64,000 nt of DNA from Octopus sinensis (GCF_006345805.1 NC_043000.1:11904001-11968000), one strand, 5' to 3'. Shown: positions 30,850-33,074, numbered from the stretch's first letter. Made by a program: numbers and translations. The notes: generated by a model from the letters alone, not told the origin.

Positions 30850-31150
30850 TAGACACTCTTAAGATGGAGTACTCTTCTTATTGATTTTTACACAAATTAA
30901 TTCTGTGTTTCCGTATACATTCGCTGCTTTCTTCCAAGGAATCTAGTGATCTTAGCTTAGATTTTCCTTGGGGTTAACCAGATTGGAGCAGTCTCGAGTA
31001 TAAGCAGCCGAAACTACAAAGATAATATGGAACTCGACTGACGAATGAAAACTCCGAATGACCCGTCCTTGCTTTTTCTTGTCCCTTTTTGTATCATCTA
31101 TCTGGATGTCTTGTCGCCTGTTTCGTTCTTGTCCCATTGTTTTGTATTCT
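30850..31150 (+). mobile_element. Copy of the structured repeat module seen at 1-240
   Basis: CTTCCAAGGAATCTAG...GATTGGAGCAGTCTCGAG...CTGACGA...GACCCGTCC. Confidence 0.65.
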
Positions 31151-31210
31151 TATAAATATATATATATATATATATATATACGAGAAAAAAGCAACAAGAA
31201 TGGATTAGTT

Positions 31211-31301
31211 TTTCAGTACAATTGTTTCATACGAAGACAAGCTTTATTAAAAGCGGCAAATATTGCAGCAAATACAAGTGTCCCGTACTCATCAGCCAAA
31301 A
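31211..31301 (-). ncRNA. Type-I hammerhead ribozyme with extended stem II
   Basis: Mirror copy of 31575-31665; core intact. Confidence 0.75.
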
Positions 31302-31574
31302 CACATATGAGTTCTCCAAGCATCCTAGTGGGTGAGGCTACACCCATGAAGTATCGGAGATAGTTCTATAAAAAGCAAATTTAGGTTGTAAGCAGACTTC
31401 CAAAGTTCTCTAATGATGATGCACAAGCTTTTTAAAGCCTGTTATAAGACTGTGCATCATCATTAGAGAACTTTGGAAGTCTGCTTACAACCTAAATTTG
31501 CTTTTTATAAAACTATCTCCGACACTTCATGAGTGTAGCCTCACCCACTAGGATGCTTGGAGAACTCATATGTG

Positions 31575-31665
31575 TTTTGGCTGATGAGTACGGGATACTT
31601 GTATTTGCTGCAATATTTGCAGCTTTTAATAAAGCTTGTCTTCGTATGAAACAATTGTACTGAAA
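31575..31665 (+). ncRNA. Type-I hammerhead ribozyme with extended stem II
   Basis: TTTTGG-CTGATGA-GTACGGG...TTCGTAT-GAAA-CAATTG-TA-CTGAAA; palindromic ACAATTGT stem III. Confidence 0.78.
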
Positions 31666-31813
31666 AACTAATCCATTCTTGTTGCTTTTTTCTCGTTTAT
31701 AATCACCCCACATTATTGTATGGTTAATACCATATAGTTTTCTGGTGCATCTAAGTTAAGTACTGCATTCAAGTGAATTATTGAATAGAACTCACTTGAA
31801 TCTTAATTGCTTT

Positions 31814-31865
<52 letters not shown>

Positions 31866-32006
31866 TATGAGAGAGTAACCACTATGTGGTCGACTCTAGT
31901 GCTAAAAATAGATCCACTATGGTATAGCCACTAAAAGTTGTTTCCAAGGAGAAATAAAACAACATTTAACGTGGGGCAAGTGAAAAATAACGAAAAAATA
32001 GATTAA

Positions 32007-32079
32007 CCCTGGACAATTGTTTCATTATTAATGTAAATGCAATTTTTACTTACACAACATCCATAAGTCATCAGCAGGA
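32007..32079 (-). ncRNA. Type-I hammerhead ribozyme with extended stem II
   Basis: Mirror copy of 32761-32833. Confidence 0.75.
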
Positions 32080-32296
32080 GTTTGTCTTAAATACAATTTA
32101 TTAAATCGCTCGTTAAATTTCGATGCAGCGCCAAATACACGTGCGGTTCAATCAATTGTATTAGCAGCTATGATTCAAATTCTCCCGCCAAAAGTGTGAT
32201 AAGACTTCTGGAAACGAATACCGCATAAAATATTTACTGCAGCATAATTAAATTTATAAATGAGGGTGAAAAATTTGATATTAATTTAATAATGCC

Positions 32297-32501
32297 TATT
32301 TCTTTATTACCCACGAGGGGCTAAACATAGAGGGGACAAACAAGGACAGACATAGGTATTAAGTCGATTACATCGACCCCCAGTGCGTAACTGGTGCTTA
32401 ATTTATCGACCCCGAAAGGATGAAAGGCAAAGTCGACCTCGGCGGAATTTGAACTCAAAGCATTTCGCCCGGCGTGCTAACGCTTCTGCCAGCTCGCCGC
32501 C
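32297..32501 (-). mobile_element. SINE family A inserted in the HHR element
   Basis: TSD TTAATTTAATAAT(G/A)CC. Confidence 0.92.
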
Positions 32502-32760
32502 TTAATTTAATAATACCATCAATTTAACACCAAGTGGCTTGATGGTATTATAAAATTAATATCAAATTTTTCACCCTCATTTATAAATTTAATTATACTG
32601 CAGTAAGTATTTTATGCGGTATTCGTTTCCAGAAGTCTTATCACACTTTTGGCGGAAGAATTTGAATCATAGCTGCTAATACAATTGATTGAACCGCACG
32701 TGTATTTGACGCTGCGTCGAAATTTAACGAGCGATTTAATAAATTGTATTTAAGACAAAC

Positions 32761-32833
32761 TCCTGCTGATGACTTATGGATGTTGTGTAAGTAAAAATTG
32801 CATTTACATTAATAATGAAACAATTGTCCAGGG
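32761..32833 (+). ncRNA. Type-I hammerhead ribozyme with extended stem II
   Basis: TCCTG-CTGATGA-CTTAT...ATAAT-GAAA-CAATTG-TC-CAGGG; GUC triplet. Confidence 0.78.
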
Positions 32834-33074
32834 TTAATTTATTTTTTCGTTATTTTTCACTTGCCCCACGTTAAATGTTGTTTTATTTCTCCTTGGAAAC
32901 AACTTTTAGTGGCTATACCATAGTGGATCTATTTTTAGCACTAGAGTCGACCACATAGTGGTTACTCTCTCATATTTATGTATAAATTTGTATTGTATCC
33001 CTGGTTTTTATGTGCTAAGCCACTTGGTGTTAAATTGATGGTATTATTAAATTAATATCAAATTTTTCACCCTC

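What the first reader, a model, noticed from the sequence alone, without database searches (positions are those of the whole stretch)
31181..31695. Young 515-bp hairpin element with two intact hammerheads bearing a branched 60-nt stem II
Seen: near-perfect arms, each with an intact core. Stem II is closed by GTACGGG/TTCGTAT and contains sub-hairpins GCTGCAA/TTGCAGC and AGCTTT/AAAGCT. Whichever strand is transcribed contains one sense ribozyme plus its antisense. Inference: an atypical HHR architecture that short-stem descriptors would miss; read-through folding into dsRNA could switch the ribozyme off.
Basis: partly seen in the sequence, partly recalled or inferred. Interest (0 to 1): 0.72.

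Follow-up and report, generated by a model that had tools for sequence, protein, structure and literature searches.

The report
Penelope-type foldback with long-armed hammerheads
This hairpin is a back-to-back pair of truncated copies of a very common non-coding jumping repeat, likely left by a Penelope-type retrotransposon enzyme, and each copy carries a hammerhead RNA motif with an unusually long side arm that recurs in thousands of repeats and is predicted, but not shown, to cut itself.

Summary
The hairpin is real: 263-nt arms, 96% complementary, each with an intact hammerhead core. It is not an element of its own. It is one head-to-head insertion of two 5'-truncated copies of a ~2-kb non-coding, high-copy retroelement in a (TA)n microsatellite, and the right copy runs on to 31816. 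Variable 5' truncation, a 16:0 head-to-head bias and a strict one-short/one-long pairing of 3' ends match published Penelope-like (PLE) insertions.

The hammerhead reading holds. Rfam misses it, but the same design (CUGAUGA, 30-66 nt, GAAAC, 4-nt palindromic loop, GU-H) occurs in several thousand copies from many families. Helices I and II covary (0 of 10,000 permutations reach the observed pairing), the cleavage base is never G (0 of 42), and helix III keeps a self-complementary form.

The "branched" stem II is not supported: the two sub-hairpins overlap and are broken in half of the family. Related families show one long interrupted hairpin.

In this locus a read-through transcript would fold into a -431 kcal/mol duplex, so these two copies are likely inert. 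Cleavage is untested.

The scan noted this class before, in this genome and in others. I found no printed description of so long a helix II.

The parts
31155..31180 (.). (TA)n microsatellite, left flank of the insertion (target)
   Evidence: read directly; repeat families D1 and I2-I25
31181..31425 (-). left arm: inverted, 5'-truncated copy of the family, with the short 3' end (...CTCG) abutting (TA)n
   Evidence: BLAST of the unit against the locus: 31451-31701 matches the left arm at 97.6% over 251 nt; end type 'TA'
31211..31301 (-). hammerhead motif of the left arm: helix I 31301-31296 / 31216-31211, core 31295-31289, helix II domain 31288-31229, GAAA 31228-31225, cut base 31217
   Evidence: descriptor hit on the reverse strand; arms are gap-free mirror images
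31426..31450 (.). unpaired centre: the 5' end of the right copy, which still matches the family (homology starts about 31421-31424); the junction of the two copies
   Evidence: other copies continue upstream with ...GTGAAGCTAACAAGCTTTTTTAAAAC before this point
31424..31816 (+). right copy: 5'-truncated copy of the family with the long 3' end
   Evidence: 378-nt matches at 94.7-97.4% identity over 31439-31816 in 12 of the 18 further solitary oriented copies compared, e.g. L003, L005, L009, L014, L015, L023, L028
31575..31665 (+). hammerhead motif of the right copy: helix I 31575-31580 / 31660-31665, core CUGAUGA 31581-31587, helix II domain 31588-31647 (closing pairs 31588-31594 with 31641-31647), GAAA 31648-31651, palindromic helix III ACAAUUGU 31651-31658, predicted cut after A31659
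   Evidence: family pair counts; clade covariation
31696..31816 (+). 121-nt 'tail': 3' extension present on one arm only
   Evidence: in 23 of 23 inverted pairs whose two ends were recognised, one arm has this extension and the other ends ...CTCG+(TA)n
31817..31861 (.). (TA)n microsatellite, right flank

Best explanation
The hairpin is one head-to-head insertion of two 5'-truncated copies of a ~2-kb non-coding, high-copy retroelement into a (TA)n microsatellite, most likely made when a Penelope-like (PLE) enzyme primed reverse transcription on both nicked DNA strands; each copy holds a type-I hammerhead motif with a 60-nt helix II that is conserved by covariation in related families and is predicted to self-cleave only as a dimer or with protein help. 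Shown here: the repeat family and its common 3' ends with variable 5' ends, the head-to-head bias, the strict short/long end pairing, the (TA)n flanks, abundant RT+GIY-YIG genes whose copies also end in (TA)n, the covariation of helices I and II, the never-G cleavage base, and the retention of a self-complementary helix III. Inferred from the literature: both-strand nicking and extension gives the inverted pair, and two internal start sites of reverse transcription give the short and long ends. Predicted and untested: in a tandem or multimeric transcript, two sense motifs pair through ACAAUUGU into an 8-bp helix III and cut after H17. In this locus the two motifs lie on opposite strands, so one transcript holds one sense motif and its antisense. 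It would fold into a long duplex and would not cut, which makes this copy an inert by-product.
For: Family: 1679 first-look candidates, 40 scored, matches 94-100% identical. 612 genomic copies keep CTGATGAG-52..66 nt-TGAAACAATTGTA, reversed-pattern control 0. Copies share the 3' end and start at different points up to about 2.0 kb upstream. No ORF above 123 aa in a full-length copy. Layout: among the first 100 listed copies, the 19 neighbour pairs within 6 kb are 16 (-,+), 3 (-,-), 0 (+,-), with spacing 139-5222 nt. 23 of 23 inverted pairs have one long and one short 3' end. PLE machinery: GIY-YIG search gave 5029 candidates, 147 of 150 scored match. ORFs carry RVT_1 plus a C-terminal GIY-YIG, and their copies end in (TA)n. 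Literature: PLE insertions are 5'-truncated, often with an inverted 5'-truncated copy at the 5' end, a tail at one end and (TA)n targets (PMC8557442, passages). A purified PLE protein cuts and extends both strands and starts reverse transcription at two internal sites that bound the tail (PMC11167929, main text). Hammerhead: 0 chance hits in 40 Mb. In 42 diverse copies, none dropped, helix I has 5.48 of 7 pairs against 3.61 +/- 0.17 with permuted partners, and the helix II base 3.57 of 5 against 2.28 +/- 0.14, 0 of 10,000 permutations each; H17 = A19 C12 U11 G0. Sister clade: 89.3% of cells paired against 32-45% when slid, 67 cells changed on both sides against 23 +/- 6, 0 of 500 shuffles. Own clade: 93.3% paired, 3 pairs and 5 cells changed on both sides, 5 of 500 shuffles. 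Helix III loops: GAUC 2463, AAUU 439+612, GAUU 1327, AAUC 102 copies, matching self-duplex energies of -10.0, -6.4, -5.8 and 0 kcal/mol.
Against: No Rfam hammerhead match, even at E<=10. The canonical G10.1-C11.1 pair is G.U here in 54 of 54 family rows and is unpaired in 15 of 22 sister-clade rows. The hammerhead-compatible fold of the window copy is 6.8-11.1 kcal/mol above its MFE. RNAalifold on the 7-sequence own clade does not return the hammerhead fold. Within the young family there is no change on both sides of a pair, and shuffles do as well as the data. Substitution rates in motif and non-motif columns do not differ clearly. The catalytic core was fixed by my search patterns; in the unbiased sample single copies carry core mutations. 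No coding PLE with this motif or this 3' end was found: no BLAST similarity to 10 GIY-YIG loci, and 0 of 22 loci have it downstream of the ORF. The driver is therefore not identified. The tail is 121 nt against 30-40 nt in print. The published PLE hammerhead was dispensable for insertion in vitro, and no RNA ends were seen at its cut site (PMC11167929).
Confidence: 0.8

Rival explanations
1. The hammerhead-like fold is conserved, but as a structured recognition element for the reverse transcriptase (or another protein), not as a working ribozyme. The core letters would then be a relic or serve binding.
For: G10.1-C11.1 is not kept. The fold is energetically disfavoured in the window subfamily. 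The long helix II has no known role in catalysis. In the one PLE studied in vitro the hammerhead needed protein to cut and was dispensable for insertion, and RNA-seq showed no ends at the cut site (PMC11167929).
Against: H17 is never G in 42 copies where that base was left free. The helix III loop keeps self-complementarity along the path GAUC to GAUU to AAUU, while the A.C form is not amplified. That is the specific requirement of dimeric hammerheads (PMC4209133). The helix III block is unchanged in 90 of 90 cells of an unbiased sample, against 7.3% change elsewhere.
Confidence: 0.25
2. It is a MITE or foldback DNA transposon whose terminal inverted repeats happen to contain the motif.
For: Near-perfect inverted arms, high copy number, no coding capacity. 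Rfam scores the hairpin like plant miRNA precursors that derive from MITEs (MIR5649, E 3e-13, below its gathering score).
Against: Most copies are single arms that continue 5' into a ~2-kb unit with varied truncation points (loose ends before 31429). Arm length varies from locus to locus, with spacing 139-5222 nt. The two ends of a pair are never alike: one long, one short in 23 of 23. No target-site duplication can be read in the (TA)n flanks.
Confidence: 0.04
3. The inversion at this locus is an assembly artefact in a high-copy repeat.
For: No contig of the four runs laid spans the whole stretch, and PLE structures are known to trouble assemblies (PMC8557442).
Against: The same head-to-head layout recurs at many loci on many contigs, with differing arm lengths. 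The two arms differ at 6 of 251 aligned positions, so they are not one sequence laid twice.
Confidence: 0.03

Closest known systems
Penelope-like element (PLE) insertions with an inverted 5'-truncated copy and a one-sided tail (Craig et al. 2021, PMC8557442; Frangieh et al. 2024, PMC11167929)
   Same: 5' truncation, an inverted 5'-truncated copy abutting the 5' end, insertion into (TA)n, an extension on one end only, and a hammerhead near the 3' end.
   Different: The family has no RT/GIY-YIG ORF (non-autonomous, about 2 kb). The tail is 121 nt, not 30-40. The short/long pairing is strict in 23 of 23 pairs, whereas the in vitro study saw no strand difference in start sites.
PLE minimal and dimeric type-I hammerheads (Cervera & de la Pena 2014, PMC4209133; Lunse et al. 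2017, not held, title only)
   Same: Type-I topology, short helix I, 7-bp helix II stem, 2-bp helix III with a palindromic loop that can form an intermolecular helix, no Rfam-type loop-loop contacts, location in PLE-type repeats.
   Different: The helix II domain is 31-60 nt (60 here) instead of a 6-8-bp stem with a small loop. G10.1-C11.1, reported there as highly conserved, is G.U here and often mismatched in the relatives.
Metazoan non-LTR retrozymes (Cervera & de la Pena 2020, PMC7229834; Li et al. 2026 preprint 10.64898/2026.07.22.740005, abstract and two passages seen)
   Same: Non-coding, non-autonomous repeats with type-I hammerheads, AT-rich, proposed to derive from PLE ends. The neighbouring family 2 forms partial tandems of about 490 nt.
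   Different: The finding's family is about 2 kb and mostly dispersed, not a 170-400-nt tandem unit. Circular RNA is not shown. The hammerhead has a long helix II, which neither text mentions (0 occurrences of 'helix II' or 'stem II' in the preprint).
'HHR_half_core' cases in Naiad PLEs (Craig et al. 2021, Methods passage)
   Same: CUGANGA and GAAA halves lie 35-50 nt apart in the 3' UTR of (TA)n-targeting PLEs. This is the same spacing class as here.
   Different: Those were recorded as not fitting hammerhead descriptors and were not claimed as ribozymes. Here the intervening sequence is shown to close into a covarying helix II. I did not examine Naiad sequences themselves.

Membership tests
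Hammerhead ribozyme, type I | Conserved core C3-U4-G5-A6-N7-G8-A9 ... G12-A13-A14, A15.1-U16.1, open helix I | tested here: met
   CUGAUGA 31581-87, GAAA 31648-51, U31658, both arms
Hammerhead ribozyme, type I | Cleavage-site base H17 is not G | tested here: met
   A31659. Among 42 related copies where this base was unconstrained: A19 C12 U11 G0
Hammerhead ribozyme, type I | Helices I and II supported by covariation | tested here: met
   Within the young family itself there are only one-sided, pair-preserving changes
Hammerhead ribozyme, type I | G10.1-C11.1 base pair | tested here: not met
   G.U in 54 of 54 family rows. Among the 42 relatives: UU 12, AU 6, GC 6, GU 5, others 13
Hammerhead ribozyme, type I | Match to the curated covariance models (Rfam Hammerhead_1 and relatives) | tested here: not met
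   No hit at gathering score or at E<=10 in 31100-31780. The genome's compact hammerheads do hit RF00163: 7 over the cut-off of 74 scored
Hammerhead ribozyme, type I | Site-specific self-cleavage | not testable with these tools
   No run on record as RNA; contigs cannot show RNA ends
PLE-type dimeric hammerhead | Short helix III with a palindromic loop that can form an intermolecular helix | tested here: met
   ACAAUUGU; self-duplex -6.4 kcal/mol. Palindromic or wobble forms are amplified and the A.C form is not
PLE-type dimeric hammerhead | Helix II of 6-8 bp capped by a small loop | tested here: not met
   A 7-bp closing stem, but 46 further nt inside. Helix II domain 31-60 nt in 42 relatives
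PLE-type dimeric hammerhead | A second sense copy nearby (tandem) for dimer formation | tested here: not met
   In the window the two motifs are on opposite strands. In the family 3 of 19 neighbour pairs are same-strand
Penelope-like element insertion | Variable 5' truncation with a common 3' end | tested here: met
Penelope-like element insertion | Inverted 5'-truncated copy abutting the 5' end | tested here: met
   Window; 16 (-,+) against 0 (+,-) among neighbour pairs
Penelope-like element insertion | Tail extension at one end only | tested here: met
   23 of 23 pairs have one long and one short end. Length 121 nt against 30-40 nt in print
Penelope-like element insertion | Microsatellite or AT-rich target | tested here: met
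   (TA)n on both flanks; short ends followed by (TA)n across copies (loose ends behind 31701)
Penelope-like element insertion | RT plus GIY-YIG ORF in the element | tested here: not met
   No ORF above 123 aa in a full-length copy. No similarity to 10 coding PLE loci. So it is non-autonomous, and its driver is inferred
Metazoan non-LTR retrozyme | Tandem units of about 170-400 nt, each with a type-I hammerhead, expressed as circular RNA | tested here: not met
   Unit about 2 kb, mostly dispersed. Circular RNA not testable. The neighbouring family 2 comes closer, with partial tandems of about 490 nt
MITE / foldback DNA transposon | Fixed terminal inverted repeats with a target-site duplication | tested here: not met
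   Arm lengths vary between loci and the ends are asymmetric. A TSD is unreadable in (TA)n

The most novel reading that the evidence does not exclude
The 30-60-nt helix II is a functional module of a so far undescribed hammerhead class. It would act as a docking arm for the Penelope-type protein, replacing the usual loop-loop contact and the G10.1-C11.1 pair in a protein-assisted, dimeric ribozyme. This class would also be what the 'half-core' cases in Naiad elements are. Separately, the strict one-short/one-long end rule would show that the two halves of a PLE enzyme dimer start reverse transcription at two different RNA sites during one concerted insertion on both strands.
Probability: 0.25. 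Interest if true: 0.7.

Novelty: new variant of a known kind. Interest (0 to 1): 0.5.

Why it matters
Hammerhead surveys use descriptors or covariance models with a short helix II. In this one genome they would miss several thousand motifs that carry the core, covarying helices I and II, a legal cleavage base and a dimer-type helix III. If the long arm is tolerated or needed for cutting, the accepted limits of the fold widen. It may also explain why some Penelope-like clades were reported to lack a canonical hammerhead. The genomic copies give a natural record of PLE integration: the head-to-head bias and the strict pairing of short and long 3' ends can be tested against the two start sites of reverse transcription seen in vitro. 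For annotation, such foldbacks imitate MITEs and miRNA precursors (Rfam E 3e-13 to a plant miRNA family here) and should not be annotated as either.

Tried and rejected
- **Rfam:** gathering scores on the whole window gave 0 matches. The E<=10 search on 31100-31780 gave 27 matches, none a hammerhead; all are hairpin or (TA)n look-alikes of miRNA and snoRNA families.
- **Plain MFE of one arm:** does not give the hammerhead fold, z -1.7.
- **Insertion idea, rejected:** I supposed the long helix II arose by a ~43-nt insertion flanked by a duplicated CTTGTAT. A search for a compact form with the same helix III found 2 unrelated sites. Older relatives already have 43-47-nt domains.
- **Selection from rates:** fixed differences between subfamilies are no rarer in motif columns than elsewhere (my count: 2 of 46 against 6 of 90). 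Core variability in the unbiased sample is 8.2% against 7.3% background, most of it at H17. Not informative.
- **RNAalifold on the 7-sequence own clade:** returns another fold.
- **Coding parent:** no BLAST similarity to 10 GIY-YIG loci. Of 22 GIY-YIG loci, 12 have a compact U3-A8 motif, 1 a canonical-type motif, 1 a long-type motif upstream of the endonuclease hit, and 8 have none. No Rfam hammerhead in 4 such loci.
- **Expression:** no RNA holder listed. Contigs of X15, X16, X19, X3 and of the guessed-RNA runs X1, X2, X7, X8 cover the family and bridge 31659/31660 but cannot show RNA ends. No contig spans the whole locus.
- **Earlier notes:** nothing near the window and nothing by sequence.
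- **Papers not held:** Lunse et al. 2017 and Arkhipova et al. 2017. Both may describe helix II ranges that I could not see.
- **MITE reading:** rejected (see rival explanations).

Full report
**1. The observation.**
The window holds an inverted repeat with arms 31175-31437 and 31439-31701: 263 nt, 96% complementary, 1 nt apart. By BLAST the complementary part is 251 nt at 97.6% (31451-31701 against the left arm), around a ~25-nt unpaired centre. Each arm carries CUGAUGA, a 60-nt stretch whose ends pair (GUACGGG/UUCGUAU), GAAA, the 8-nt palindrome ACAAUUGU, then A and a 6-bp helix I. My descriptor found only these two sites on the window's two strands, even in its loose form. It found none in 40 Mb of second-order Markov sequence at five stringencies. 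The left arm has a change in one of them.

**2. What the arms are.**
- The window lies in a 2.72-Gb genome. The arm is a high-copy repeat there: 1679 first-look candidates, 40 scored, 94-100% identical.
- In other copies homology does not stop at the arm. On the 3' side it ends either at ...CTCG followed by (TA)n, or 121 nt further at ...GCTTTTAC followed by (TA)n. The window's right copy has the long end (to 31816) and the left arm the short one.
- On the 5' side, copies continue well past the hairpin centre and stop at different points, up to about 2.0 kb. The three longest copies share one 5' boundary.
- A full-length copy has no ORF above 123 aa.
- The 'element' of the finding is therefore two 5'-truncated 3' ends of a longer non-coding retroelement, joined head to head inside a (TA)n tract (31155-31180 and 31817-31861).

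**3. The layout is systematic.**
- 612 copies in the genome keep both core halves and helix III at this spacing; the reversed-pattern control gives 0.
- Among the first 100 listed, 19 neighbour pairs lie within 6 kb: 16 are (-,+), as in the window, 3 are (-,-) and none is (+,-). Spacing runs from 139 to 5222 nt.
- In all 23 inverted pairs whose two ends my regex recognised, one arm has the long end and the other the short end. Two of these pairs come from one tandem locus. In two further pair-bearing loci (L008, L013) the second end was not classed.
- Contigs of four public runs under four organism labels hold the family in large amounts. Their loose ends show the 5' continuation before 31429 and (TA)n behind 31701.

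**4. Which machinery.**
- The genome is full of GIY-YIG hits: 5029 candidates, 147 of 150 scored.
- Two long ORFs carry RVT_1 followed by a C-terminal GIY-YIG, the Penelope-like architecture. Their copies end in (TA)n.
- Craig et al. 2021 (PMC8557442, passages) describe PLE insertions as highly 5'-truncated, often with an inverted 5'-truncated copy at the 5' end, a 30-40-bp tail at one end, a bias for microsatellites ((TA)n for Naiads) and a hammerhead near the 3' end.
- Frangieh et al. 2024 (PMC11167929, main text) show that a purified PLE protein cuts and extends both strands of AT-rich DNA. It starts reverse transcription at two internal RNA sites, and the tail is the stretch between them.
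- Priming on both strands gives exactly the (-,+) geometry seen here, and two start sites give the short and long ends.
- This step is inferred. I found no coding element that shares this family's 3' end or motif, so the driver is not identified.
- Li et al. 2026 (preprint; abstract and two passages) argue that animal retrozymes are non-autonomous derivatives of PLE ends. That is the class this family falls in or next to.

**5. Is the hammerhead real?**

Against it:
- No Rfam hit.
- G10.1-C11.1 is G.U.
- The hammerhead-compatible fold of the window copy is 6.8-11.1 kcal/mol above the MFE.
- The young family shows only one-sided, pair-preserving changes.

For it, the same design is a trait of many families:
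- CTGATGA-30..52 nt-GAAACAATTGT occurs 439 times, reversed control 2.
- I fetched 40 diverse sites and added the two window copies, dropping none, including four or so that look like chance.
- Helix I was not in the pattern. It has 5.48 of 7 pairs against 3.61 +/- 0.17 with permuted partners. The base of helix II has 3.57 of 5 against 2.28 +/- 0.14. In both cases 0 of 10,000 permutations reach the observed value.
- Each position shows several Watson-Crick pair types.
- The free base at the cut site is A19 C12 U11 G0.
- On an explicit hammerhead structure, the sister clade (22 sequences) has 89.3% of cells paired against 32-45% when slid, with 12 pairs and 67 cells changed on both sides, against 23 +/- 6 in shuffles (0 of 500).
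- The finding's own clade (7 sequences) has 93.3% paired, with 3 pairs and 5 cells changed on both sides (5 of 500; slid controls 33-53%).
- An unbiased sample of 15 family-2 arms found by BLAST shows a C-G to U-A switch in helix I, and no change in 90 cells of helix III against 7.3% elsewhere. It also shows scattered core mutations, as expected of decaying copies.

**6. Helix III and the dimer model.**
- With the core fixed, the loop variants count as follows: GAUC 2463, AAUU 439+612, GAUU 1327, AAUC 102.
- The first two are perfect 8-nt palindromes, the third pairs with itself through two G.U wobbles, and the last cannot pair.
- Self-duplex energies are -10.0, -6.4, -5.8 and 0 kcal/mol.
- CpG decay of GAUC should give GAUU and AAUC equally often. 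Yet GAUU is an amplified subfamily of the finding's own lineage, and AAUC occurs only as scattered copies.
- These loop bases cannot pair within a monomer's 4-nt loop. The pattern fits an intermolecular helix III, as proposed for newt, schistosome and PLE hammerheads (PMC4209133, PMC6765202; passages).

**7. Helix II.**
Pairs 53-67, 66-81 and 67-80 are broken in 27-28 of 54 rows, which is the commoner subfamily.
- In the sister clade, RNAalifold and the pair counts give one long interrupted hairpin with a hexaloop. 6 of its first 8 pairs change on both sides.
- There the constrained fold is only 0.8-3.4 kcal/mol above the MFE.
- The helix II domain is 31-60 nt in the 42 copies.
- In the texts I could read, 'long' helix II means 6-8 bp (PMC4209133, PMC13725137).
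- Craig et al. list Naiad 'half-core' cases with the halves 35-50 nt apart, which they did not accept as hammerheads.
- Two relevant papers are not held, and bioRxiv supplements were not opened.

**8. This locus.**
The two motifs sit on opposite strands, so any one transcript has one sense motif and its antisense. The 515-nt transcript folds into a -431 kcal/mol duplex with the whole motif paired. No dimer of sense motifs is possible within the locus. It is most likely an inert by-product of integration. A role as a source of double-stranded RNA is possible but untested.

**9. Earlier notes of this scan.**
Notes in this genome (e1-9589788, e1-9564141) and in other genomes (e1-9512530, e1-9549286, e1-9592753) describe the same class and the one-short/one-long rule. 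I read them after reaching these results, so they agree with my reading but are not independent evidence. They gave me the lead to the 2026 preprint.

**10. Verdict.**
The locus is an ordinary product of a known kind of insertion. The hammerhead is a well-supported new variant (very long helix II, no G10.1-C11.1) of a known ribozyme class. Catalysis is untested.

Noticed in passing
window 31862-32978: Directly right of the (TA)n tract lies a second head-to-head structure from an unrelated-looking family: arms 31862-32296 and 32544-32978, 435 nt, 98% complementary. Each arm has CTGATGA-44 nt-GAAACAATTGTC and helix I CUCCUG/CAGGG (+ copy: core 32766-32772, cut base C32828). The family has 1981 first-look candidates at 83-98% identity and forms partial tandems of about 490 nt.
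   Followed up: yes
L050, L051, L048, L131-L135, L137-L140 (own genome): 12 of 22 GIY-YIG (coding PLE) loci carry a compact hammerhead-like motif about 100 nt before their (TA)n end. Its core reads UUGAUAA, that is U3 and A8 in place of the C3-G8 pair, with a 5-bp helix II and GAAAC-AU-GU-H. Rfam does not detect it.
   Followed up: partly
window 31681-31695 and 31805-31816; L051 about 2440-2461: The two alternative 3' ends of the family look alike: GTTGCTTTTTTCTCG and AATTGCTTTTAC, each followed by (TA)n. The coding PLE ends ...CTTCTTTTTTACAAA(TA)n. This may be a shared start-site motif for reverse transcription. Seen by eye only.
   Followed up: no
own genome, 23 loci: Strict asymmetry: every inverted pair has one arm with the 121-nt extension and one without, while solitary copies occur in both forms.
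   Followed up: partly
window, whole: There are 97 inverted-repeat pairs of at least 60 nt within 3 kb of each other, for example 29369-29598/30350-30579 and 16640-16790/16851-17001. The window may be full of foldback-type insertions.
   Followed up: no
L035-L041 (own genome): Canonical compact type-I hammerheads (CUGAAGAG-ACCC...GGGU-CGAAAC-AUGU-GUC) that pass Rfam RF00163 sit in yet another repeat family. Two of them lie 431 nt apart on one strand.
   Followed up: partly
window 31376-31500: Rfam scores the hairpin tip like miRNA precursors (MIR5649 64 bits, E 3e-13; MIR7696; mir-242_2), all below their gathering scores. This is an artefact of any long perfect hairpin and a trap for annotation.
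   Followed up: yes
L034 1-326 against 840-1135 (own genome C3): Upstream of a full-length family copy, a stretch looks like an inverted copy of an internal part of the same element. Seen by eye and not checked with a tool.
   Followed up: no
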